This document shows positions 20,499-31,175 of a DNA stretch of 64,000 nucleotides, piece after piece (position 1 is the first letter of the stretch; each line of letters begins with the position of its first letter). Location of the stretch: assembly GCA_963782055.1 (NCBI GenBank), contig CAWAIF010000003.1:4672001-4736000 (forward strand), given 5' to 3'. The notes below the pieces were generated by a model, which was not told where the DNA came from, ran no database searches, and saw only the letters and a list, made by a program, of their open reading frames with translations. Position numbers and translations under genes: made by a program. Source of the DNA: an uncultured delta proteobacterium (GTDB lineage: Bacteria; Myxococcota_A; Polyangia; Polyangiales; Polyangiaceae).

Positions 20499-22022
20499 GT
20501 GGACATGAAGGAGGGCCAGACGATCGCCGGGAAGTACCGGCTGCATCACCTGCTCGGAACGGGCGGGATGGCCACCGTCTGGTCTGCGACCAACGTCTTC
20601 ACCGACCGCCAGTTCGCCATCAAGTTCCTGCTGCCCAACGTCGCCAAGACGCCCGAGGCCTCCCGCCGCTTCCTCATGGAGGCGAAGGTGAGCGGCCGCG
20701 TGCAGCACCCCAACATCATCGAGGTGATGGACGTCGGCCAGGCCGAGGACGGCGTGCTCTTTCTGGTGATGGAGCTCCTGCAGGGCGTCTCGCTGGAGAT
20801 GGCCATGCGCCAGCAGAGCCCGCCGATGAGCCTCTACGAGTTCGCCGGCGTGATGACCGACGTGGCGCGCGCCCTCGCGGCGGCGCACCGCGGCGGCGTC
20901 ATCCACCGCGACCTCAAGCCCTCCAACATCTTCATGCACAAGGACCGCGGCGGCATCGCGGTGCCCAAGGTGCTCGACTTCGGCGTCAGCAAGTTCCTCC
21001 TGGACGACGACCGCAACAACGCCCTCACCGTCGCCGGCACCGTGCTCGGCTCGCCGCTGTACATGAGCCCGGAGCAGGCCGTCGGCGCGAGCGACATCGA
21101 CCACCGCACCGACGTCTTCGCCTTCGGCGCCATCCTCTTCGAGGGCCTCTGCGGCTTCCGCGCCTACGACGCGCCCAACTTCAACGCGCTCATCGTCACC
21201 ATCGCCACCCAGCAGCCGAAGAGCATCGACCAGTACGGCGCGCACCTGCCGGAGAGCCTGCGCGCCATCGTGCGCGACTGCATGGTCACCGATCGCAAGA
21301 AGCGCATCGCCGGCTTCGATCAGGTCGTCGAGCGCATGACCGCGCTGCTCCCGGAGCTCGAGCACAACCCGCTGCGATTGCCGGCGCCCATCCAGCGCGA
21401 TTCCCGCCCCCCGCCGGACCCGGAGTCCACCAGCGCCATGCCGGCGATCGTCCGGCCGAGCGACAGGCCTCCCTCCTTCCACGAGGGGCCGCCGCCCGTC
21501 TCCGCGTCGCAGGCGCCCTGGGCCGGCTCCCTTCCCGGCGTCCGGCCGAAGCGCACCCCCGTGCTGCTCTTCGCCGCGGTGGGGATGCTCCTGGCCTCCA
21601 TCCTCATCGTGGGCGTGCTCGTGCTGGCCGTCGCGCGCCGGCACTTCCGCTCGGTCGCCGCCGCGGCGTCCACGCCCGCCGCGGCTTCGGTCGTCGCGCA
21701 GGCCGACCCCGCGCCCACCACCTCCGCCTCGGCGGACGTCCCCGTCATCAACATCGACTCGCTGCCGGTCGCGTCGGCGTCCGCCTCGAAGCACACCGTC
21801 GTCCCGCGCGGCCGGGGCCGCCTCTACGTCGACGCGTCGCCGCACTGGTGCACCGTCAGCGTCGACGGCAAGGTTCGCGGCCCGACGCCCCTCGCCAACC
21901 TGAGCGTATCTGCCGGCCCGCACACCCTGCGGTGCGAGACCTCCGGCGGCGTCGCCAAGACCGTCACCATCACCGTCTACGGAGGGCAGACGGTGCGCCA
22001 CAAGTTCGCGACGAGCCCCTGA
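20499..22022 (+). CDS. Membrane Ser/Thr protein kinase with C-terminal PEGA-like domain
   Basis: GTGGMATV, HRDLKPSN, DFG, YMSPE; TM; VDGKVRGPTPL..G.H. Confidence 0.92.
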   Translation: MDMKEGQTIAGKYRLHHLLGTGGMATVWSATNVFTDRQFAIKFLLPNVAKTPEASRRFLMEAKVSGRVQHPNIIEVMDVGQAEDGVLFLVMELLQGVSLEMAMRQQSPPMSLYEFAGVMTDVARALAAAHRGGVIHRDLKPSNIFMHKDRGGIAVPKVLDFGVSKFLLDDDRNNALTVAGTVLGSPLYMSPEQAVGASDIDHRTDVFAFGAILFEGLCGFRAYDAPNFNALIVTIATQQPKSIDQYGAHLPESLRAIVRDCMVTDRKKRIAGFDQVVERMTALLPELEHNPLRLPAPIQRDSRPPPDPESTSAMPAIVRPSDRPPSFHEGPPPVSASQAPWAGSLPGVRPKRTPVLLFAAVGMLLASILIVGVLVLAVARRHFRSVAAAASTPAAASVVAQADPAPTTSASADVPVINIDSLPVASASASKHTVVPRGRGRLYVDASPHWCTVSVDGKVRGPTPLANLSVSAGPHTLRCETSGGVAKTVTITVYGGQTVRHKFATSP

Positions 22023-22027
22023 GCGCC

Positions 22028-23185
22028 ATGTCGCCGCCGCGCCCGCGCACGGTCGCCGTCGCCTGTGCAGCCTTCGGGGTGCTCGTGGCGGCCCGCTGCT
22101 CGCGGCCCCCCAACGGCCCGCCGGAGCCGCGGGCCGGGGGCGACGCGACCATCGGCCCGGCGCCGGACATCGCCCCCGCGCAGGACGCCGCAGACGAGGC
22201 GCCGTACCTGGACGCGACCGGCGCCCTCCTGGACGCCGCGAGCGACGCGCCGGACGACGCGGACCTCGCGGACATCGACGCCGAACCGCCGGACGACCCG
22301 ATGGCCCTGCACCAGGACACCCGCGCCGGCCTGCTCGCCCTCATCGACCTGCGCGACTTCACCCCCGCGCAGCTCAAGGTCGTGCGGCCGGACATCTTCC
22401 TGCGCCTCAACGTGGGCCCCGCCGTCACGCGCATGAACCAGGGCAACAAGGCCATCGCCCACCACGCGATCGGCCGCCGCGCCTGCTTGCGCGGCTTGCA
22501 AGGCGTGGTGCTGCAGACGCCGGAGCAGCGCGCGCGCTGCGGCGCGCCCTACATGGTGCCCATCTACAAGAAGGGCGACCCGAAGAGCGCACACTACTGC
22601 ATGGACATCTTCGAGTTCCCGGACAAGCCGTGCGAGCTGCCCTTCGTCTGGGCGGCGCCCACCCACGCGGCCACCATGTGCGCGCTGCAGGGCAAGCGCC
22701 TCTGCACCGAGGCGGAGTGGAACCTGGCGTGCCGCGCCGACCCCGCCGGCGGCGCGGACACGACCTACGCCTACGGCGACGAGCTCGACCTCACCATCTG
22801 CAACACCGACAAGCCGCGCGGCGCGAGCAACAAGTGCCGCCCGGCCACGGCGAAGATGGCGTGGGAGACGTGCAGCACCGACACCGAGCCCTCCGGCGCC
22901 TTCCCCCGGTGCCGCTCGCGCTTCGGCGTCTACGATCAGCACGGCAACGTCGCCGAGATCATGACCCGCCACGACAAGAACGGGACGCTGGTCTCGCAGC
23001 TCAAGGGCAGCGCATTCTTCTACGCCGAGGTCGCGCAGAAGCCCGGCGAGCGCGGCCGCCCCGGCAGCTACCCCGACCACTGCAACTTCGACCCCCGCTG
23101 GCATGTCGAGGCGATGGACCACGCCTGGCACGTCAACTACCACCTGGGCTTCCGCTGCTGTAAGTCGATCCCCCCCGAGCCTTGA
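22028..23185 (+). CDS. FGE-sulfatase domain protein
   Basis: GKRLCTEAEW, FGVYDQHGNVAE, GFRCC. Confidence 0.82.
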   Translation: MSPPRPRTVAVACAAFGVLVAARCSRPPNGPPEPRAGGDATIGPAPDIAPAQDAADEAPYLDATGALLDAASDAPDDADLADIDAEPPDDPMALHQDTRAGLLALIDLRDFTPAQLKVVRPDIFLRLNVGPAVTRMNQGNKAIAHHAIGRRACLRGLQGVVLQTPEQRARCGAPYMVPIYKKGDPKSAHYCMDIFEFPDKPCELPFVWAAPTHAATMCALQGKRLCTEAEWNLACRADPAGGADTTYAYGDELDLTICNTDKPRGASNKCRPATAKMAWETCSTDTEPSGAFPRCRSRFGVYDQHGNVAEIMTRHDKNGTLVSQLKGSAFFYAEVAQKPGERGRPGSYPDHCNFDPRWHVEAMDHAWHVNYHLGFRCCKSIPPEP

Positions 23186-23205: not shown

Positions 23206-24009
23206 CTACAGCCCGCCGAGCAGCACGCCGCGCTCGCCCAGATCCGCCAGCAGCCGCGCCACCGACGCCAGCACCTCGTCGTCCATCGCGCGCCCGCGCT
23301 CCTCGCACGCGCCCTTCACCGCGTCGCCCAGCGCCTCCCCGCGCTCCACCCGCGCGATCACCGAGTACGCCAGCGGCGAGAGCTCCAGGAAGCGCACCGC
23401 GTGCTCCTCGTCGCGGTACGCGAGCAGGAAGGTCTCCCCCGCCTCCGGCGTCTCGCGGGCATCCTCCTCGGCGGAGAGCCGGTGCACCGCGTGCCCGAGC
23501 GCGAGCAGCCGCATCACGGCGGTGAGCACCAGCGGCCGGTCCAGCGCCAGCTCGGCGAGGCCCGGCGGCTCGGCCAGGTCCGGCGCGGACGCGACGGCGA
23601 CCTCGGCCAGCTCCAGCTCGGCGAGATCGGCCAGGTACCCGGGCAGCTCGGCGCGCGCGCGCCATCGCGGCGACGCCCACGCCACGAGCTCGCCCGGCAC
23701 GTCCTTGACGTAGTGCGTGCGCGGCCCGACCTCGTGCAGGAAGGCGTCGACCTCGGCGTCGAAGGCGCCCTCCTGCGCGGCGTTCATGCGCGCGCGCGTG
23801 CGCGCGAGCAGCCGGTAGACCACCCCCTCCAGGGTGTTTCGCACCAGCCGCCGGTAGATGGCGAGCCGCGCCGGCATCATCGCGTCGATGTCGCGGGCGT
23901 CGACCCCGCGCCGCTCCAGGAAGCCGCGCGGATCGCGCGCCAGCTCTTCCCCGGCGCCCTCCTGGAGGCAAGCATCGGCGATGGCCTGCTGCAGGCTGCG
24001 GTCCGCCAT
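23206..24009 (-). CDS. DUF2063-type MNIO partner protein (putative DNA-binding/RRE domain)
   Basis: RLAIYRRLVRN, YLADLAELELAE motifs; TGATG coupling to the DUF692 gene. Confidence 0.82.
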   Translation of the reverse strand: MADRSLQQAIADACLQEGAGEELARDPRGFLERRGVDARDIDAMMPARLAIYRRLVRNTLEGVVYRLLARTRARMNAAQEGAFDAEVDAFLHEVGPRTHYVKDVPGELVAWASPRWRARAELPGYLADLAELELAEVAVASAPDLAEPPGLAELALDRPLVLTAVMRLLALGHAVHRLSAEEDARETPEAGETFLLAYRDEEHAVRFLELSPLAYSVIARVERGEALGDAVKGACEERGRAMDDEVLASVARLLADLGERGVLLGGL

Positions 24010-24896
24010 CACCCCGTCCGCTCTCGTTCCCCCTCCCCCTCCAGCGGGAGGGAGGCCGGGAGGGTGAGTCCGCGGATGCGCTCGATCTCCGCGAGCAGCC
24101 CTGCCAGGGGCGGCACGTTGTTGTCGCGCTCCAGCACGATGGGCACCGGGCCGGTGCGCGGCAGCACGCGCCCGAGCAGCGCGAGCACCGGATCGCAGAC
24201 GTCGGCGCCGTGCGTGTCCAGGACGATCGAGCCGCTCGCGCCCGGCACGAAGTCGCCCTCGTCGAAGTGCTCGTGCCCCGCCACGTGGATCTGCACCGTG
24301 CGCTCCAGCGGCGCGACGCGCAGCCACTCGTCGACGTCGAAGCCGAAGTTGTGCGCGTTCACGTAGGCGTTGTTCACGTCCAGCATCAGCCCGCAGTCCG
24401 CGCGATCGCACACCCGCGCGATGAACTCCGGCTCGCTCATGCCCCGCGCGCCGGGGTGGACGTAGAAGCTGATGTTCTCGACGGCCATCGGCACGCCCAG
24501 CGTGTCCTGCGCGCGCCGCACCCTCTCGGCGACGCGATCGGCGGTGGCCTCGGTGAACCCGAGCGGGAGCAGATCGTGGAGCATGACGCCGCGCGCGGAG
24601 CCGAAGCAGAGGTGATCGGAGTGCCAGGGAGCGCGCACGTCCCGGAGGAAGGCGCGGAGCTCGCGCAGGTATTCGGCATCCAGCGGGTCGGCGCCGCCGA
24701 GCGACATGGTGAGCCCGTGCGTGAGGACGGGGAAGCGCCCGGCCAGGTGCGAGAGCGCGGCAGGGAAGTAGCCCCCGCGGCGCATGTAGTTCTCCGGCGA
24801 GATCTCCAGGAAGTCGATGGGCCGGGTGGTCTCGGCGTCGGCGGCGAGGAGCTCGTCGATGAACTCCCACCGCAGCCCGAGGCCGACGCCCCTCAT
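24009..24896 (-). CDS. DUF692 family multinuclear non-heme iron oxidative enzyme (MNIO)
   Basis: GVGLGLR, EISPENY, HGL, SDHLCF, HDLLPL, ENISFY, LDVNNAYVN, IHVAGH, DTHG, LERD. Confidence 0.93.
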   Translation of the reverse strand: MRGVGLGLRWEFIDELLAADAETTRPIDFLEISPENYMRRGGYFPAALSHLAGRFPVLTHGLTMSLGGADPLDAEYLRELRAFLRDVRAPWHSDHLCFGSARGVMLHDLLPLGFTEATADRVAERVRRAQDTLGVPMAVENISFYVHPGARGMSEPEFIARVCDRADCGLMLDVNNAYVNAHNFGFDVDEWLRVAPLERTVQIHVAGHEHFDEGDFVPGASGSIVLDTHGADVCDPVLALLGRVLPRTGPVPIVLERDNNVPPLAGLLAEIERIRGLTLPASLPLEGEGERERTG

Positions 24897-24899
24897 GCC

Positions 24900-25382
24900 C
24901 TACTTCTTCTTCGGGTCCGCCGCGCAGGTGCCCGCGCCGCAGCTCGCGTTGGCCGCCTTGGGCGACTTGTGCTTCGGCGGGGTGTGCTTCTTCGGCTTCG
25001 GCGGAGGCGTCGTGGTCGCGGTCGTCGGGGCGGGCGGCGGCTTCGCGTCCTTCGACGCATCGGTGGGCTGTACCCCGTCGCCCGAGCCGCTCGCCGCGCC
25101 CGAGGGCGGCGTGGTGCTCGCCGTGTCGCCCAGCGCGCCGCCACCCTTCGGCGTGGCCCCGCAGGACGCCGCCGGCGTGTCGGGCGCGGCCTTCGGCTTG
25201 GCGCCGCAGCTCGCGTTCGACGAGCCGGCGTTGCCGCCGTTCTGCGTGGAGGTGACCTCGGTGGAGCTCGCCGGCGACTGCGCGGCGGGCGCGGCGCCCC
25301 CGCAGGCGGCGAGCACGACGGCCGAGCTGCCCAGCGCGGCGAGCGTGGAGGCGATGTTCTTGAGCGAGAGGTTGGGACGCAT
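24900..25382 (-). CDS. Putative MNIO substrate: 160-aa low-complexity lipoprotein with three ASCGA motifs
   Basis: GAGGAG RBS, lipobox LAAC; NASCGAKPK, AASCGATPK, NASCGAGTCAADPKKK; stop 3 nt before the DUF692 start. Confidence 0.8.
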   Translation of the reverse strand: MRPNLSLKNIASTLAALGSSAVVLAACGGAAPAAQSPASSTEVTSTQNGGNAGSSNASCGAKPKAAPDTPAASCGATPKGGGALGDTASTTPPSGAASGSGDGVQPTDASKDAKPPPAPTTATTTPPPKPKKHTPPKHKSPKAANASCGAGTCAADPKKK

Positions 25383-25402
25383 GCGGTGTGGGCTCCTCTT
25401 CT

Positions 25403-26209
25403 TCAGTCTACATGTCCGAGCGTGGCGTGCAGGTCGAGCGTGACGTCGGCCGTCTTGGCGACCTTGGCGACGAGGCTGGTGGTCCACGCGGTGAGCTTGC
25501 CGATGTTGTCGCGCGGCTTCACGTCGTGCTCGGCGAGGGTCACCTCCATCGGTTTTTTACTACGCACGTCCACCTTCGTTGGTTTCGACGTGGGGGTGCT
25601 GCCGGCAGCGTAGTGGAAGCGCGCCTCCACCGGCACGTCCTTCTGGACCTTGTGGCCGTGGAGCAGGAAGTCGCCGTGCACCGTGGCCGTGACGGTGCGG
25701 ATGTCCTCGCCGCTCTCGCTCTTGGGAGGGACCTTCGACAGATCGGTGGCGCTCAGGCCGTCGACCGACTGGATGGCGAAGACCACGTACTGGTTGGCCG
25801 CCTTGGTCTTGGCGTCGGCGATGTCCCCCACCTCGAGCCAGTTGCGGGCGTGACGCGTCTGCGTGTCGTTCTTGTCCTGGTCGTCGGCGAAGGTGTGCAT
25901 CGTCAGGGTCGTCAGGTCCACCTTCACCTCGCCGCGGGTGTTGGCGAGGTTCCCCAGGTCGATCTGGAGCTGGCCGCCGGCGGCGTCGGTGTCGGCCTTG
26001 ATCTCCTCCTTCAGGCCGGCCATGTCCACGCTGGTCTTGCTCTTGGGGTCGATGTCGTACGTCACCACCATCGCGCTGGCCGGCGGCGCGGCGGCGCTCA
26101 CCGCGCTGGCGGAGGCGGCGAGGTTCACCGGCGGGTCCTTCTTCGAGCACGCAAAGAGCAGCGCGCCCGCCGTCACCACGCCCAGAGCCATCACACCTGC
26201 TCGCTTCAT
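25403..26209 (-). CDS. YceI-like lipoprotein
   Basis: Lipobox LFAC; YDIDP.S.T, GEVKVDLTTL, ATVHGDFLLHG YceI-like beta-barrel pattern. Confidence 0.65.
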   Translation of the reverse strand: MKRAGVMALGVVTAGALLFACSKKDPPVNLAASASAVSAAAPPASAMVVTYDIDPKSKTSVDMAGLKEEIKADTDAAGGQLQIDLGNLANTRGEVKVDLTTLTMHTFADDQDKNDTQTRHARNWLEVGDIADAKTKAANQYVVFAIQSVDGLSATDLSKVPPKSESGEDIRTVTATVHGDFLLHGHKVQKDVPVEARFHYAAGSTPTSKPTKVDVRSKKPMEVTLAEHDVKPRDNIGKLTAWTTSLVAKVAKTADVTLDLHATLGHVD

Positions 26210-26437
26210 CGATCGCTTTCCTTCCGGCCCCCCGCGAGGGCACCCTATCCTACGCGCTCACCCTCTTCTGGTTTCATCGCCTTCGGTGGAGCCTGCGGCT
26301 TGGCCCCAAATTCGCGGACTTTGCGCGGGAGAAGGGTTGCCGTCCAGCCACGAACTTGGCATTCTCCATCACCGTGGCACTGTCATATTCCAGCCTGGGC
26401 GTGGCCCGGCGGATGGTGCCACGAGCGGAGGTGGCCG

Positions 26438-28723
26438 GTGAACGCACGCGCCTGGATCTCGACCCTGTTGTTCGCTCTGGCGCTGCTGGCGGGCGCCTTC
26501 TCCGCGGGCTGCGGCAGCGAGGACCCCATCTCGGTGTTCGACAGCGGCACCGGACAGGACGCGCAGGTCGTCGGGCCGACAGACGCGACGACCTCCGATG
26601 ACAGCCCCTTCTTCCAGAACGACGCGGGCACCACCACCGCGATCACCATCCAGCCGGCAGACCCTGTCGTCGACGTGACCATCGCCGACGGGGTGCTCTC
26701 GACCACGCCGCTCACCTTCCAGGCCATCGCCAACAACACCAGCTCGCCCGTCGCCGCGTCCTTCACCCTGGACCGCGGGGAGCTCGGCGATCTCGTCGCT
26801 GCCACCGGCGTCTTCACCGCGAGCGGCAACGTCAGCGGCACCGGGACGGTCACGGCGACCTTCCAGAACCTCAAGGCCACCACCACGGTGACCGTGCACG
26901 TCACCATCACGCAGAACGGCAAGCCGCAGCTCGACGGCGGCGTGCCCGACGGCGGCACCCTCGGGGGCAACAACGGCGTCGGCGGCAACGACTACGGCGA
27001 CCCGGTGGACAACACCACCAAGACGATCCTCGACGGCCAGGCCCAGAAGCCCCAGAACCAGGCGGAGCTCGGCTGGCTCTACCCGTACGACAAGACAGTC
27101 TGGCCGCGCGGGGTGCTCGCCCCGCTGCTGCAGTGGCAGACGACGCACACCATCCAGGCGGTGCGCATCCACCTGGAGCAGAAGAACTTCACCTTCGACG
27201 GCTATTACGCGGGCAACGCGCTGATCAACGAGCCCGTCGACCAGACGGCGTGGAAGAAGGCGCTCTACGGCAACGGGGGCGACCCGCTCCACGTCGACCT
27301 CTACGTGACCGACGGCACCACCAACTTCGGCCCCATCTCGGAGGACTGGCTGGTGGCGCCCGGCACGCTGAAGGGCACCGTCTACTACAACTCGTACAAC
27401 TCGCGGCTCACGACCGGCTCCAACGGGGTGGTGCTCTCCATCAAGCCGGGGGCGGTGGCGCCGGACCTGGCCGTCCCGGGCACCGACACCAAGTGCCACG
27501 TCTGCCACGAGGTCTCCAGCGACGGCTCGACGCTCTTCGTCCAGGACGACACCTACTCCGACGGCGCCTCGTACGACCTCACCAACAACAACGGCACGCC
27601 CATCGCGACGTACAGCGGCACCGCCTCCGACGGCACGTCCAACAACCGCAAGTTCCTCTGGTCGGGCGTCTACCCCGACGGCACCTTCGCCATGAGCAAC
27701 GCGCGGCACGCGCGCGAGCACGCCAGCATCGACTCCAACCTCTTCAAGCGCTCCGACGGCACCAAGATCGCCACCAGCGGGTGGACGAGCGCGGTGACCT
27801 CCGCCGTCACGCCCGCCTTCTCCCCGGACGGCAAGCGCCTCGCCTTCAACTTCTGGGAGGGCCCCGGCGCCAACGGCGTGACCGCCGGCGCGGGCCACTC
27901 GCTCGACATCATCGACTTCGACTGCGGCCAGGCCGATGGCGGCAAGACGTGCGGCAGCCCCCCGTACGCCTTCTCCAACCTCCGTGAGCTCTACAAGGAC
28001 AGCAACCGCTGGGTGGGCTGGCCGGGCTTCACGCCCGACGGCCAGGGCATCGTCTTCCACGACACCGTCAAGGCGGGGAGCTGCGGCGACTGCGAGATCG
28101 CCACGTGGAACGGCGCGCAGGCGGAGCTCTGGTACACCGACGTCGCGCAGAACAACAAGCCGGTGCGCATGAACGCGCTCGATGGCCTGGACGCCAACAA
28201 CACGAGCTACCTGCCCACCAACAACAAGCACCCCGACGACACCATCCTCAACTACGAGCCGACGGTGAACCCCATCGCCTCCGGCGGGTACTTCTGGGTG
28301 GTGTTCACCACCCGGCGCATGTACGGCAACGTCGCCGCGGGCGATCCGTACGACAACGGCAACGGCACCTACCCCATCCCCAAGAAGCTCTGGGTCGCCG
28401 CGGTGGACATCAACCCGACGCCCGGCACCGATCCCTCGCACCCCGCCTTCTACCTGCCCGGCCAGGAGATCAACGCGGGCAACCTGCGCGGCTTCTGGGT
28501 CGTCGACCCCTGCAAGTCCAACGGCAACACCTGCGAGACCGGCGACGAGTGCTGCGGCGGCTTCTGCCGCAAGGACCCCGAGGGTGGCGGCTACGTCTGC
28601 ACCGACACGCCGCCCCCCGGCTGCTCGCAGGAGTTCGAGAAGTGCTCGAGCGATGGCGACTGCTGCGGCAACCCGCAGATCAAGTGCATCAACGGGTTCT
28701 GCGCGAAGCCCAAGCCGAACTGA
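26438..28723 (+). CDS. Large lipoprotein: Ig-like region, CxxCH motif, PD40/TolB-like propeller, C-terminal Cys-knot-like repeats (paralog 1)
   Basis: GGAGG RBS, lipobox SAGC, CHVCH, PAFSPDGKRLAF, PGFTPDG, CC-containing tail. Confidence 0.8.
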   Translation: MNARAWISTLLFALALLAGAFSAGCGSEDPISVFDSGTGQDAQVVGPTDATTSDDSPFFQNDAGTTTAITIQPADPVVDVTIADGVLSTTPLTFQAIANNTSSPVAASFTLDRGELGDLVAATGVFTASGNVSGTGTVTATFQNLKATTTVTVHVTITQNGKPQLDGGVPDGGTLGGNNGVGGNDYGDPVDNTTKTILDGQAQKPQNQAELGWLYPYDKTVWPRGVLAPLLQWQTTHTIQAVRIHLEQKNFTFDGYYAGNALINEPVDQTAWKKALYGNGGDPLHVDLYVTDGTTNFGPISEDWLVAPGTLKGTVYYNSYNSRLTTGSNGVVLSIKPGAVAPDLAVPGTDTKCHVCHEVSSDGSTLFVQDDTYSDGASYDLTNNNGTPIATYSGTASDGTSNNRKFLWSGVYPDGTFAMSNARHAREHASIDSNLFKRSDGTKIATSGWTSAVTSAVTPAFSPDGKRLAFNFWEGPGANGVTAGAGHSLDIIDFDCGQADGGKTCGSPPYAFSNLRELYKDSNRWVGWPGFTPDGQGIVFHDTVKAGSCGDCEIATWNGAQAELWYTDVAQNNKPVRMNALDGLDANNTSYLPTNNKHPDDTILNYEPTVNPIASGGYFWVVFTTRRMYGNVAAGDPYDNGNGTYPIPKKLWVAAVDINPTPGTDPSHPAFYLPGQEINAGNLRGFWVVDPCKSNGNTCETGDECCGGFCRKDPEGGGYVCTDTPPPGCSQEFEKCSSDGDCCGNPQIKCINGFCAKPKPN

Positions 28724-28847: not shown

Positions 28848-28886
28848 TTGCGCGGCGGCGGAAGTTTGCGTCCGCACTGGAGCCCC

Positions 28887-31175
28887 ATGACCCGATCGCT
28901 TCTCCGACTCCTGGTGATCTCTCTCCTCCTCGTGGCGGCGGTGGTCGCGGCCGGCTGCGGCAGCGACGACACCGGTCCGGCGACGTTCCCCAACAGCCCG
29001 GACTCCGGAGGCCTGCCGGGTGACGGCCTGGACGCCAGCTTCAACGGCAAGGACGGCGGCCCGCTCCAGTCGATCCAGATCCAGCCGCAGGACCCCGTGG
29101 TGGACGTCACCATCGCCGACGGCGTGGTCACCACCACGCCGCTCACCTTCACCGCGACGGGCAACAACGGCGCGTCGATCGCCGCCAGCTTCGGCCTGGA
29201 CCGCGGCGAGCTGGGCGATCTGATCGCCTCCACCGGCGTCTTCACCGCCAGCGGCAACCTGGGCGGCACCGGCACCGTCACCGCCACCTACCAGGGCCTC
29301 GAGGCGCAGACCTCGCTCACCGTCCACATCGTCATGACGCAGAACGGTCCGCCGGACGGCGGCGTGGTGGACGGCGGCGCGGGCGGCTACGGCGGCGTCG
29401 GCGGCAGCGGGCCGGGCAACGCGGTGGACTCGCAGACCAAGCAGCGGCTGATGGGTCCCTCGCAGAAGCCGCAGAGCGCGCAGGAGCTGGGCTTCCTCTA
29501 CCCGTACGACAAGACGGTGTGGCCGCGCGGCGTGCTCGCCCCGCTGCTGCAGTGGCAGACGACGCACACGATCGCGTACGTGCGCATCCACCTGGAGCAG
29601 AAGAACTTCAGCTTCGACGGCTTCTACGGCGGCAGCGCGCTGGTCAACCAGCCCATCGACCCCAACGCCTGGAAGAAGGCGCTCTACGGCAACGGCGGGG
29701 ACGCGCTCCACGCCGACCTGTACGTCGCCGACCAGAACACGGTGTGGGGCCCCATCTCGGAGGACTGGCCCGTCGCCGCGGGCACCCTCAAGGGCACCGT
29801 CTACTACAACTCGTACAACTCCGGCCTCAACGCCAACGGGGCGACCACCGGCGCGGTGCTGGCGATCAAGCCGGGCGCGACGGCGCCGACGCTCGCGATC
29901 CCCTCGCTCAAGGGCAAGTGCCACGTCTGCCACGAGGTGGCGAGCGACGGCTCCTCGCTCTACACGCAGATCTCCTCGTCGCTCGTCGACAACAGCCAGT
30001 ACTACGCGCCCAACGCCTCCTTCGACATGACGAACAACGCGCAGCAGATCGCGTCGTACACGGGCAACGCGCCGGACGGGACGAACAACGACCGCAAGTT
30101 CCTCTGGTCGGCGGTGTATCCCGACGGCACCTTCGCCCTGTCCAACTCGCGCCACGCCCGCGAGCACAACACGCTGGACTCCGACCTGTTCGCGCGCGCG
30201 GACGGCACGCGCATCGACTCCACGGGCCTCAACGGCGTCGTCTCCAGCGCGGTGACGCCCGCCTTCTCGCCCGACGGCAAGCGGGTGGCGTTCAACTTCT
30301 GGGAGGGCGCGGGCGGAGGCGGCGTCACCGCGGGCGCGGGCCACTCCCTGGCGGTCATGGACTTCGACTGCGGCCAGGGCAACGGCGTGACGTGCAGCGG
30401 GGCGCCCCCCTACGCCTTCGGCAACCTGAAGGAGCTGTACCGCGACAACACCCGCTGGCCGGCGTGGCCCAGCTTCACCCCCGACGGCGCGGCGCTCCTC
30501 TTCCACAACACCGTCACCAAGGGCACGTGCGGCGACTGCGAGATCGCCACCTGGTACGGCGCGCAGGCGGAGCTCTGGTACACCGACGTCCCCAAGAACG
30601 GCTCGCCGATGCCGGTGCGCATGAACGCGCTGGACGGCCTGGACGCCAGCAACCAGCGCTACCTCCCCCAGAACGGCGACCACCCGGACGACACCGTGCT
30701 CAACTACGAGCCGACGGTGAACCCCATCGCGTCCGGCGGGTACTACTGGGTCGTGTTCACTTCACGCCGGATGTACGGCAACGTCGCGGCAGGCAAGCCC
30801 TACGACAACGGGGACGGCACCTACCCCATCGCCAAGAAGCTCTGGGTGGCCGCGGTGGACATGAACCCCAAGCCCGGCGACGACCCCTCCCACCCGGCGT
30901 TCTACCTGCCCGGGCAGGAGCTGGACGCGGGCAACATGCGCGGCTTCTGGGTCGTCGACCCGTGCCAGCCCAACGGCACCGACTGCGAGACTGGCGACGA
31001 GTGCTGCAACGGCTTCTGCCGCAAGGCGGAGGACGGCGGCGGGCTGGTGTGCACCGACAAGCCGCCGGGGTGCGCGCAGGAGTTCGAGAAGTGCACGACC
31101 GACGCCGACTGCTGCGGGGCGAACTCGGGGATCGCGTGCATCGGCGGGCGGTGCTCGAAGAAGTCTCCGAATTGA
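28887..31175 (+). CDS. Large lipoprotein, tandem paralog 2 of 26438-28723
   Basis: Lipobox AAGC; long identical blocks (YPYDKTVWPRGVLAPLLQWQTTHTI, NYEPTVNPIASGGY); CHVCH. Confidence 0.8.
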   Translation: MTRSLLRLLVISLLLVAAVVAAGCGSDDTGPATFPNSPDSGGLPGDGLDASFNGKDGGPLQSIQIQPQDPVVDVTIADGVVTTTPLTFTATGNNGASIAASFGLDRGELGDLIASTGVFTASGNLGGTGTVTATYQGLEAQTSLTVHIVMTQNGPPDGGVVDGGAGGYGGVGGSGPGNAVDSQTKQRLMGPSQKPQSAQELGFLYPYDKTVWPRGVLAPLLQWQTTHTIAYVRIHLEQKNFSFDGFYGGSALVNQPIDPNAWKKALYGNGGDALHADLYVADQNTVWGPISEDWPVAAGTLKGTVYYNSYNSGLNANGATTGAVLAIKPGATAPTLAIPSLKGKCHVCHEVASDGSSLYTQISSSLVDNSQYYAPNASFDMTNNAQQIASYTGNAPDGTNNDRKFLWSAVYPDGTFALSNSRHAREHNTLDSDLFARADGTRIDSTGLNGVVSSAVTPAFSPDGKRVAFNFWEGAGGGGVTAGAGHSLAVMDFDCGQGNGVTCSGAPPYAFGNLKELYRDNTRWPAWPSFTPDGAALLFHNTVTKGTCGDCEIATWYGAQAELWYTDVPKNGSPMPVRMNALDGLDASNQRYLPQNGDHPDDTVLNYEPTVNPIASGGYYWVVFTSRRMYGNVAAGKPYDNGDGTYPIAKKLWVAAVDMNPKPGDDPSHPAFYLPGQELDAGNMRGFWVVDPCQPNGTDCETGDECCNGFCRKAEDGGGLVCTDKPPGCAQEFEKCTTDADCCGANSGIACIGGRCSKKSPN

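What the first reader, a model, noticed from the sequence alone, without database searches (positions are those of the whole stretch)
23206..26209. MNIO (DUF692) operon with a lipoprotein-anchored ASCGA-repeat precursor and a YceI-like gene
Seen in the sequence: four tightly linked minus-strand genes (gaps of 20 nt and 3 nt, then a TGATG overlap) encoding a YceI-like lipoprotein, a 160-aa low-complexity protein, a DUF692 enzyme with its His/Asp/Glu metal motifs, and a DUF2063 partner. Apart from the lipobox Cys (LAAC), every Cys of the small protein lies in ASCGA motifs (NASCGAKPK, AASCGATPK, C-terminal NASCGAGTCA), separated by Pro/Thr/Lys spacers. Established: DUF692/MNIO enzymes (MbnB, TglH, ChrH, HvfB, BufB) modify Cys in neighbouring precursors, and the HvfA and bufferin products carry Cys-derived thiooxazoles that bind copper. 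Inference: this is a lipid-anchored, envelope-displayed MNIO product whose ASCGA core differs from the EGKCG motif of HvfA, possibly a myxobacterial metal-buffering system with a YceI ligand-binding accessory protein.
Basis: partly seen in the sequence, partly recalled or inferred. Interest (0 to 1): 0.82.

Follow-up and report, generated by a model that had tools for sequence, protein, structure and literature searches.

The report
Membrane-tethered myxobacterial copper-binding peptide operon
A soil myxobacterium carries a four-gene stress operon that most likely turns the cysteines of a fat-anchored, floppy envelope protein into copper-grabbing rings; it is a lineage-specific variant of a recently described class of metal-binding peptides, not a new kind of system.

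Summary
The four genes are real and conserved. In 72 of 78 evaluable Polyangiaceae-type loci a lipoprotein precursor precedes the MNIO; a YceI-fold gene lies beside it in 50 of 52 loci with full flanks. The fixed core is the C-terminal SCGAGTC pair at the end of a ~110-residue disordered tether; the internal ASCGA repeats are optional. That core is not alien to EGKCG: it is a lysine-free double 5-mer with the same Cys spacing, sister loci read EGSCGEGSCS, and the enzyme groups with oxazolin-type (ERD) MNIOs, with changes at two positions that map to published specificity sites. New here: a conserved GAAACC-N15/16-CGTA promoter (twice in this operon; 43 of 66 relatives) that in this genome also precedes an ECF sigma/nrsF pair, msrA, an msrP-like gene and doxX, i.e. 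a SigF-like copper/oxidative regulon. Best reading: a lipid-anchored 5-thiooxazole Cu(I) buffer (captophorin-type DAG-RiPP), about 0.68; chemistry and metal binding are inferred, not shown. Lipidated oxazolins are published (PMC13056109), whose uncharacterised CxxxxC 'cluster X' may be this family (supplement closed). The YceI link was not found in print. Verdict: new variant of a known kind; interest 0.45.

The parts
26251..26275 (-). Predicted ECF (SigF-like) promoter, GAAACC-N15-CGTA, about 40 nt before the YceI-like start
   Evidence: One of only 2 matches in the window; shuffles mean 0.03, none reached 2; same motif upstream in 43 of 66 related loci
25403..26209 (-). YceI-fold lipoprotein (268 aa, lipobox Cys21), Polyangiaceae subfamily; predicted hydrophobic-ligand beta-barrel
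   Evidence: Pfam PF04264 E 1e-5; AF2 model pLDDT 87.8; Foldseek top hits 2x32, BcnA 5ixh, 3q34, E. coli YceI 1y0g; Cys21 invariant in 54 aligned
25561..25586 (-). Second predicted ECF promoter, GAAACC-N16-CGTA, inside the YceI-like coding sequence, about 180 nt before the precursor start
   Evidence: in relatives the motif lies before YceI (28 sites), between YceI and precursor (10) or inside YceI (2)
24900..25382 (-). Lipoprotein RiPP precursor (160 aa): signal peptide 1-26, lipobox Cys27, disordered Ala/Pro/Thr/Gly/Lys tether with optional xSCGA repeats (Cys59, Cys74), terminal core
   Evidence: AF2 pLDDT 56.7, only the signal helix is structured
25302..25382 (-). Unusually conserved type II signal peptide and lipobox (MRPNLS...LAALG...LAAC)
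   Evidence: mean pairwise identity 0.54 against 0.23 for the YceI signal peptide of the same 44 loci
24924..24944 (-). Invariant core SCGAGTC (Cys148, Cys153), the predicted double 5-thiooxazole site
   Evidence: C148, G149, G151, C153 invariant in 42 aligned; terminal core in 114 of 120 listed protein homologues
24009..24896 (-). MNIO (DUF692) maturase, ERD/oxazolin-type branch
   Evidence: PF05114 E 1e-91; H60, D94, H95, E140, D173, N176, H204, D227, H229, E256, D258 invariant in 81 of 81; tree
23206..24009 (-). PME1-type partner protein (DUF2063 + NGO1945_C), HvfC/BufC-like

Best explanation
A Polyangiaceae captophorin-type operon making a lipid-anchored copper buffer. Under copper or oxidative envelope stress a SigF-like ECF sigma factor (released from NrsF) transcribes the operon from two promoters (inferred). 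In the cytoplasm the MNIO with its DUF2063 partner oxidises each S/G/T-Cys-small motif by 4 electrons to 5-thiooxazole, always the terminal SCGAGTC pair and probably the optional internal repeats (inferred from kinship with FonBC/HvfBC/NgoBC). The product is exported by Sec, acylated at Cys27 and cleaved by signal peptidase II (inferred from the lipobox; shown for NedA), leaving a membrane-anchored, ~110-residue flexible tether that ends in a pair of thiooxazoles binding about one Cu(I) (inferred). The co-transcribed YceI-fold lipoprotein most likely serves the same stress by binding a hydrophobic antioxidant or damaged lipid, as BcnA-type proteins do, rather than taking part in the chemistry (weakest step). 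Shown here: gene anatomy, conservation, enzyme motifs and placement, fold, promoter motif. Not shown: any modification, metal binding, location, expression.
For: Precursor upstream of the MNIO in 72 of 78 evaluable loci. Every one of 111 internal mature Cys in 60 full-length precursors is followed by G, S or A, the context FonBC requires (PMC13097082, section 12); commonest Cys spacing is 5 (81 of 171 gaps), as in the minimal two-repeat FonBC substrate. MNIO motif residues and the Asp matching the catalytic base are invariant in 81 of 81. FastTree puts the family with the N. gonorrhoeae, P. aeruginosa and E. albertii ERD-type enzymes (local support 0.94), apart from EWD bufferin-type enzymes; the sister clade has lipoprotein precursors ending EASCGAGSCG or EGSCGEGSCS. 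PME1-dependent MNIOs tested so far give 5-thiooxazole and bind Cu (PMC13097082; oxazolin reassigned, 10.64898/2026.06.05.730506 abstract); lipidated oxazolin NedA is shown (PMC13056109). Promoter: 43 of 66 loci sense, 0 antisense, 0 in the MNIO/partner coding stretch; held-out MNIO loci 15 of 38 sense against 3 of 38 antisense, mostly bufferin-2 operons; of 10 genome-wide matches 2 are here and 6 precede an ECF sigma-nrsF pair, MsrA, an Oxidored_molyb (MsrP-like) gene, DUF1223, DoxX and an M48 peptidase. The ECF16/SigF consensus is tGTAACc-N16-CGAA with Msr genes as targets (PMC3420878); Caulobacter buf operons are in the SigF copper regulon (bioRxiv 2024.03.18.585515).
Against: No experiment. 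The MNIO is below the curated cut-offs of both HvfB (282 of 360) and BufB (271 of 310), the partner below HvfC (110 of 142); 0 of 42 precursors pass the HvfA model, 1 scores weakly. Lys precedes only 2 of 111 internal Cys; Ser-Cys and Thr-Cys were not among the position-3 variants whose results the read section names, except Thr and Ala (tolerated). In HvfA a non-motif Cys pair 5 apart stays a disulfide (PMC11252979), so some Cys here could remain unmodified. Two positions that map to FonB specificity sites differ (Trp10 in 79 of 81; Gln/Asn259), mapped through 3BWW and motif position, not through the FonB sequence. Copper genes are near only 3 of 21 sampled loci (HMA, CusF, YtkA, no control). 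The promoter count genome-wide is not above chance (7 seen, 14.7 expected for the stricter pattern); the -10 box differs from the ECF16 consensus (CGTA vs CGAA), the pattern was devised after seeing the window and L020, and kin are not independent. 4 of 80 loci (L061, L069, L075, L077) show the MNIO with no recognisable precursor in the DNA held.
Confidence: 0.68

Rival explanations
1. The same thiooxazole lipopeptide is made, but its main job is redox protection of the envelope (sink for oxidants or lipid peroxyl radicals, together with the YceI barrel, MsrA and MsrP-like proteins) or binding of another soft metal, not copper buffering.
For: Most co-regulated genes in this genome are oxidative-repair genes; EcfF responds to H2O2 and singlet oxygen (PMC3420878); BcnA, a top fold match, protects against lipid peroxidation (PMC9113575 abstract); a minimal precursor has only two Cys, a poor bulk metal store.
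Against: Every characterised PME1-type product read about here binds Cu; precursors expand to 6-9 Cys in some loci, as expected for stoichiometric chelators; the motif also precedes bufferin-2 operons.
Confidence: 0.15
2. The altered active site performs other chemistry on the CxxxxC pair (cross-link or macrocycle, one ring plus a free thiol, or disulfide of the remaining Cys), giving a membrane-bound ligand unlike captophorins.
For: Trp10 and Gln/Asn259 at the mapped specificity sites; sub-threshold scores to all named MNIO models; strict conservation of one terminal pair recalls the ChrH/DybH C-terminal motif logic (PMC13056109).
Against: ChrH model scores only 56 bits of 600; partner is PME1 type; FonB variants at these sites still made 5-thiooxazole (PMC13097082 section 14); sequence bridges to EGKCG repeats exist.
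Confidence: 0.12
3. About the YceI gene only (not exclusive with the above): it is a dedicated partner that binds the lipopeptide (its acyl chains or its modified core) for trafficking, display or copper hand-off.
For: Same-strand neighbour in 50 of 52 full-flank loci and 68 of all 80, upstream in 65 and downstream in 3; a different, canonical YceI follows the partner gene in 3 of 5 sister-clade loci; in L035 YceI and precursor share one open frame; no DoxX among 91 neighbour ORFs of 21 loci.
Against: 12 of 28 YceI-seeded loci have no MNIO within about 3-5 kb (15 linked, 1 weak hit not extended); 2 full-flank loci lack YceI (L031, L053); precursor-side promoters let the last three genes be read without YceI; no conserved Cys/Met cluster and only partly conserved His in the barrel; shared regulation alone can explain clustering.
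Confidence: 0.25
4. The small lipoprotein is an ordinary low-complexity envelope protein and not the MNIO substrate.
For: 4 loci have the enzyme without a recognisable precursor; NCBI calls the Labilithrix copy a transcriptional regulator or hypothetical protein.
Against: Fixed gene order in 72 of 78 loci, invariant Cys pair in an otherwise 32%-conserved tether, no other Cys-motif candidate in the operon.
Confidence: 0.03

Closest known systems
Oxazolin/fontiphorin/gonophorin group of captophorins (HvfABC, FonABC, NgoABC; PMC11252979, PMC13097082)
   Same: Precursor-MNIO-DUF2063 order, ERD-type enzyme in the same tree branch, 5-mer Cys repeats with a small residue after Cys and 5-residue spacing, unstructured precursor with a signal peptide.
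   Different: No EGKCG (KCG in 1 of 120 listed homologues); one invariant terminal pair on a long tether; Trp/Gln-Asn at mapped specificity sites; below HvfA/HvfB/HvfC cut-offs; YceI in the operon and DoxX elsewhere in the regulon.
DAG-RiPPs: lipo-NedA and the uncharacterised CxxxxC 'cluster X' (PMC13056109)
   Same: Type II signal peptide plus MNIO-target Cys motifs; cluster X is described as lipoprotein precursors of 50-160 aa with a conserved CxxxxC, which fits this family.
   Different: NedA has EGKCG repeats. Whether cluster X is this family could not be checked (supplement closed); the main text of paper and preprint names no organism, motif letters, YceI gene or promoter for it.
Bufferins Buf1/Buf2 (bioRxiv 2024.03.18.585515; PMC12452194)
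   Same: PME1 partner, Sec export, SigF-type control, about 16% of Buf2 predicted lipoproteins; a lipidated Buf2-like operon with a near-match to the promoter is in the same genome.
   Different: Bufferins are folded 4- or 6-Cys proteins; the myxobacterial Buf2-type enzymes are EWD-type in another branch; this precursor is disordered and matches no bufferin model.
'CxxxxC' family of Antoine et al. 2025 (PMC12452194)
   Same: Signal peptide and CxxxxC motifs beside a PME1-type MNIO.
   Different: That family goes with DoxX and in 54% with Lactamase_B_2 (layout seen in L117, whose precursor has K/R-rich GKC motifs and no lipobox); the Labilithrix orthologue's MNIO is not in their CxxxxC column.
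YceI/BcnA bacterial lipocalins (PDB 1y0g, 5ixh, 2x32; PMC9113575)
   Same: Eight-stranded barrel fold (Foldseek E 2e-8, TM to target 0.66-0.76).
   Different: 10-19% identity, lipid anchor, insertions, RDxHL motif replaced by QTxHAxxWL; linked to an MNIO operon rather than cytochrome b561.

Membership tests
Captophorins (MNIO-PME1 thiooxazole metallophores) | MNIO with intact metal-site motifs and catalytic Asp | tested here: met
   PF05114; residues invariant in 81 of 81; which residues ligate iron is recalled from MNIO structures
Captophorins (MNIO-PME1 thiooxazole metallophores) | Adjacent DUF2063/PME1 partner | tested here: met
   DUF2063 + NGO1945_C over cut-off; the Labilithrix orthologue pair is listed in Data set S1 of PMC13097082 at coordinates matching L020
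Captophorins (MNIO-PME1 thiooxazole metallophores) | Exported Cys-motif precursor directly upstream, small residue after Cys | tested here: met
   72 of 78 loci; 111 of 111 internal Cys followed by G/S/A
Captophorins (MNIO-PME1 thiooxazole metallophores) | 5-thiooxazole product (-4 Da per Cys, ~305 nm) | not testable with these tools
   needs co-expression and MS/NMR
Captophorins (MNIO-PME1 thiooxazole metallophores) | Copper binding or copper-stress role | not testable with these tools
   only indirect: SigF-like promoter
Oxazolin / Buf_EGKCG (Lys-Cys) family | EGKCG repeats (NF050137) | tested here: not met
   0 of 42 pass, best 14.3 bits of 19.5
Oxazolin / Buf_EGKCG (Lys-Cys) family | HvfB and HvfC equivalog scores; Arg-Arg and Asp-Phe specificity residues | tested here: not met
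   282 of 360 and 110 of 142 bits; Arg-Trp and Asp-Gln/Asn (mapping through 3BWW)
Bufferins Buf1/Buf2 | DUF2282 or 6/12-Cys folded precursor; BufB score | tested here: not met
   no Pfam or NCBIfam precursor hit while the genome's own Buf2-like precursor hits NF050166 (47 bits, cut-off 60) and its enzyme passes BufB; BufB 271 of 310 here
DAG-RiPPs | Type II signal peptide with lipobox Cys on an MNIO precursor | tested here: met
   Cys27 invariant in 42 aligned; lipobox-like pattern in 119 of 120 homologues; judged by pattern, SignalP not available
DAG-RiPPs | Shown diacylglycerol/N-acyl modification | not testable with these tools
   needs MS of the membrane fraction
DAG-RiPP cluster X | Membership in the published sequence list (Table S6) | not testable with these tools
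Antoine 'CxxxxC' family | Listed MNIOs; DoxX and Lactamase_B_2 neighbours | tested here: not met
   WP_146653865.1 only in sheet Fig7B; neither family among 91 neighbour ORFs of 21 loci; their Fig. S3 and Table S2 were not held
YceI family | YceI domain and barrel fold | tested here: met
SigF/ECF16 regulon | Promoter like tGTAACc-N16-CGAA and a sigma-NrsF pair carrying the same promoter | tested here: inconclusive
   GAAACC-N16-CGTA before the genome's ECF sigma-nrsF pair; resembles but is not identical to the published consensus; ECF group not typed; no RNA data

The most novel reading that the evidence does not exclude
A two-lipoprotein envelope module: the lysine-free thiooxazole lipopeptide and a dedicated lipidated YceI barrel act as one unit, the barrel carrying the peptide's lipid anchor or a lipophilic redox partner so that captured copper is displayed, shed in vesicles or detoxified at the membrane, with the unusually conserved signal peptide acting as a leader or export brake that lets the cytoplasmic enzyme finish first. 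This would be the first RiPP with a lipocalin-like partner and the first signal peptide shown to matter for a captophorin enzyme.
Probability: 0.15. Interest if true: 0.75.

Novelty: new variant of a known kind. Interest (0 to 1): 0.45.

Why it matters
It adds a lysine-free, long-tethered, membrane-anchored branch to the captophorins and offers a natural test of the published specificity rules (neutral 5-mer with matching enzyme changes). The promoter gives a ready hypothesis for a SigF-like copper/oxidative regulon in Polyangiaceae, tying MNIO products to Msr, DoxX and YceI genes. A cultured, harmless strain (Labilithrix luteola DSM 27648, locus L020) has the whole operon, so chemistry, lipidation, regulation and the YceI question are directly testable. 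It does not change the picture of what MNIO-PME1 systems do unless the chemistry or the YceI partnership proves different.

Tried and rejected
Selenocysteine read-through as the reason for missing precursors: the three-frame print-outs of the six loci without an upstream hit showed a frameshifted copy (L023), an unrelated gene in between (L072, L077) or YceI abutting the MNIO (L061, L069, L075), no TGA-interrupted core. The flanking FGE-like, PD40 and kinase genes as operon members: they are on the other strand in the window and vary in position and strand among loci. Sigma-70 promoter/terminator scan: nothing above chance. Signal peptide as an established leader: its conservation is real but BufA1 and HvfA are modified without theirs, so it is kept only as a hypothesis. 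YceI as a metal-binding protein: no conserved Cys or Met cluster. Complex prediction of YceI with the precursor core: tool not available, nothing folded, no verdict. Earlier-findings look-ups by sequence, by first word set and by relatives returned nothing. A literature search for a CarQ-type promoter consensus gave 0 papers and passages of PMC9304148 did not give one, so a likeness to Myxococcus CarQ promoters is recalled only and not used. The order-wide MNIO tally is not used; only its loci L119-L147, none from the unpublished genome G467.
Full report
Observation. Pfam names them YceI (E 1e-5), no family, MbnB_TglH_ChrH (E 1e-91) and DUF2063 + NGO1945_C. The 160-aa protein has five cysteines: the lipobox Cys27, three in ASCGA (59, 74, 148) and Cys153 in GTCA. 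It is the only one of 23,483 stop-to-stop frames of 100-260 aa in the 7.58-Mb genome with three ASCGA or with the terminal core.

Conservation. A scan of GTDB genomes with the MNIO found 317 relatives, of which the best 80 were returned, nearly all titled Polyangiaceae, Labilithrix or Myxococcales; all counts below rest on these 80. In 72 of the 78 with at least 150 nt upstream, an ORF ending in CGx[GD]xC lies within 600 nt before the enzyme. Of the six misses, L023 is a frameshifted copy, L072 has the precursor 2.3 kb upstream, and L061, L069, L075, L077 show none in the DNA held. For 60 of the 72 a full N-terminus was parsed (12 dropped: contig ends or parser failures); mature Cys number 2 to 9, 15 have only the terminal pair, and the pair sits 76-140 residues (median 112) from the lipobox. 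In an alignment of 42 only L14, C27, C148, G149, G151 and C153 are invariant. A profile search gave 161 homologues; 114 of the 120 listed end in the core, 1 has KCG. AlphaFold2 gives no fold beyond the signal helix (pLDDT 56.7). So the conserved object is a lipid anchor, a disordered Ala/Pro/Thr/Gly tether and a terminal SCGAGTC; the internal ASCGA repeats are optional.

Relation to EGKCG. The core reads as two 5-mers with Cys five apart, the commonest spacing (81 of 171 gaps). All 111 internal Cys are followed by G, S or A and only 2 are preceded by Lys. FonBC needs two repeats, demands a small residue after Cys and tolerates Ala or Thr before it (PMC13097082, section 12). A FastTree of 73 MNIOs (33 of the 81 family enzymes, picked by hand to span the set, plus 40 others) joins the family with the ERD-type enzymes of N. 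gonorrhoeae, P. aeruginosa and E. albertii (local support 0.94, midpoint root), away from the EWD-type enzymes that sit beside the myxobacterial bufferin-2 precursors; five loci from other families of the order form a sister clade whose lipoprotein precursors end EASCGAGSCG or EGSCGEGSCS. The N. gonorrhoeae precursor itself carries GSCGA repeats beside EGKCG. The enzyme keeps every motif residue and the Asp matching the catalytic base in 81 of 81 sequences, but has Trp where Lys-Cys enzymes have a second Arg (79 of 81) and mostly Gln or Asn where they have Phe; these are the sites that PMC13097082 (section 14) ties to the Glu and Lys of the repeat. The mapping goes through 3BWW and is an inference. 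Against plain membership: HvfB 282 of 360 bits, BufB 271 of 310, HvfC 110 of 142, and 0 of 42 precursors pass the HvfA model. It works like an oxazolin-type captophorin; it is not an EGKCG-family member.

YceI. The model (pLDDT 87.8) matches YceI/BcnA barrels (Atlas first hit a Myxococcota cluster with YceI on 45% of members). A YceI-profile hit lies on the same strand in 50 of 52 loci with full flanks and 68 of all 80 (65 upstream, 3 downstream; profile built from these loci). In 401 genomes of the phylum the subfamily was found in 23: 19 of 28 of the window's family, 2 of 23 of one other, 1 weak elsewhere, plus the own genome. Seen from YceI the link is looser: of 28 loci 15 are MNIO-linked, 12 have none within about 3-5 kb (5 are second copies in genomes with a linked copy), 1 weak hit was not extended. 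Three of five sister-clade loci have a canonical Sec-type YceI after the partner, so the pairing recurs with two kinds of YceI. No DoxX was found among 91 neighbour ORFs of 21 loci; copper-related domains in 3 of 21.

Signal peptide. In 44 loci with both N-termini cleanly parsed (9 of 53 dropped for doubtful YceI starts) the precursor signal peptide is 54% identical on average, the YceI signal peptide 23%, the tether 32%. That points to a second job, but BufA1 and HvfA are modified without their signal peptides, so leader function is only a hypothesis. Gly follows the lipobox Cys in 55 of 60, which by the E. coli rule cited in PMC13056109 means no inner-membrane retention; sorting in Polyangiaceae is untested.

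The window holds exactly two GAAACC-N15/16-CGTA sites, at 26275-26251 and 25586-25561, both in this operon and in its sense (shuffle mean 0.03). A first strict pattern hit 25 of 61 YceI upstream regions against a shuffle mean of 0.25; the final pattern hits 43 of 66 loci in sense, 0 antisense, 0 in the coding stretch. The pattern was devised from the window and L020, and kin are not independent. As a held-out test a weight matrix found it before 15 of 38 other MNIO loci against 3 of 38 antisense, mostly bufferin-2 operons, one from Asticcacaulis. The genome has 10 matches: two here; six before an ECF sigma-nrsF pair, an MsrA lipoprotein, a TAT-like Oxidored_molyb protein, DUF1223, DoxX and an M48 peptidase; one inside a sigma-54 activator gene and one before ORFs without a Pfam hit. 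The number is not above chance; the placement is the evidence. The ECF16/SigF consensus is tGTAACc-N16-CGAA, autoregulated, with Msr targets (PMC3420878, section 10), and Caulobacter buf operons belong to the SigF copper regulon. No RNA run was available.

Mechanism. Most likely (0.68): stress, SigF-like transcription, cytoplasmic 4-electron oxidation of the Cys motifs to 5-thiooxazoles by MNIO plus partner, Sec export and lipidation, and Cu(I) capture by the ring pair at the end of a membrane tether, about one Cu per pair as argued for oxazolin. All of these steps are inferred from homology. Rivals: mainly redox or other-metal function (0.15), other chemistry on the CxxxxC pair (0.12), not a substrate (0.03). 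Separately, the YceI protein is more likely a co-regulated lipid-protecting barrel than a dedicated partner (0.25 for dedicated).

What is in print. Seen: PMC13056109 (abstract, passages, parts 4 and 5 of 7; supplement closed), its preprint PMC12636315 (passages), PMC12452194 (parts 2 and 3 of 8, passages, term searches in two held spreadsheets, one cut; Fig. S3 and Table S2 not held), PMC13097082 (sections 12-14, passages, term searches in two spreadsheets), bioRxiv 2024.03.18.585515 (passages), 10.64898/2026.06.05.730506 (abstract and opening), PMC11252979 (passages), PMC3420878 (section 10, passages), PMC9113575 (abstract), PMC9304148 (passages, unhelpful). Lipidated MNIO products are published and shown for an oxazolin; an uncharacterised lipoprotein 'cluster X' with CxxxxC is mentioned and may be this family. 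The Labilithrix enzyme-partner pair is in the captophorin data set, but no row for its partner and no MRPNLS precursor was found in the Cys-rich ORF sheet; the precursor accession is absent from Antoine's held files. Searches for YceI with MNIO gave 0 papers; no listed paper held both YceI and DUF692 or DUF692 with the taxon names (first 20 of 113); searches showed no paper on this family. The library lacks most subscription papers. An earlier AI note on another Polyangiales genome reached a similar reading (e1-2202436); it is not counted as support.

Verdict. Real, well conserved, and explained as a lysine-free, lipid-tethered variant of the oxazolin-type captophorins. What is unreported, as far as these searches go, is the recurrent YceI neighbour, the matched enzyme-substrate changes, the conserved signal peptide and the SigF-like regulon. 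New variant of a known kind; interest 0.45.

Noticed in passing
G000:C3:2967977-2969351 (L171:726-2100): ECF sigma factor and NrsF anti-sigma pair preceded by the same GAAACC-N16-CGTA motif; the candidate regulator of the operon.
   Followed up: partly
G000:C3:1686930-1688130 (L081) and C3:1685229 (L174): A lipidated bufferin-2-like operon with a one-mismatch promoter site, and nearby on the other strand a DoxX gene with a full match.
   Followed up: partly
G000:C2:140735-141960 (L082); relatives L131, L133: A BufB-scoring MNIO preceded by a short lipoprotein with only one or two ASC[SN]G motifs: an apparently reduced precursor type in the bufferin-type enzyme branch.
   Followed up: no
G000:C3:4774238-4776520 (L083): A fourth MNIO on a long branch; a lipobox-bearing ORF with six mature Cys (HCGGENTC, HTCRGMNVC-like motifs) lies on the opposite strand downstream and matches no NCBIfam model.
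   Followed up: no
L035:3770-4978: YceI-like gene and precursor form one open frame of 402 aa, the precursor keeping its own start and signal peptide; natural fusion or assembly error not decided.
   Followed up: no
L061, L069, L075, L077: Family MNIO with normal motifs but no recognisable precursor in the DNA held; in three the YceI gene abuts the enzyme. The precursor may lie elsewhere.
   Followed up: partly
L140, L142, L144, L145, L146 (L148-L152): Sister clade in other families of the order with acidic (Glu-rich) lipoprotein precursors ending EASCGAGSCG or EGSCGEGSCS, three followed by a canonical YceI gene.
   Followed up: partly
window 26432-28723 and 28884-31175 (+): Two tandem paralogous ~760-aa Cys-rich lipoproteins with PD40 repeats, divergent from the operon; a homologue neighbours the operon in several close relatives.
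   Followed up: no
window 20499-23185 (+): Ser/Thr kinase and FGE-sulfatase-like gene converge on the operon; kinase and FGE-like genes follow the partner in many relatives, on either strand.
   Followed up: no
G000:C3:+2737311, +5226473, +5259212: Three identical 35-nt promoter-like hits with no ORF called downstream, probably part of a repeated element.
   Followed up: no
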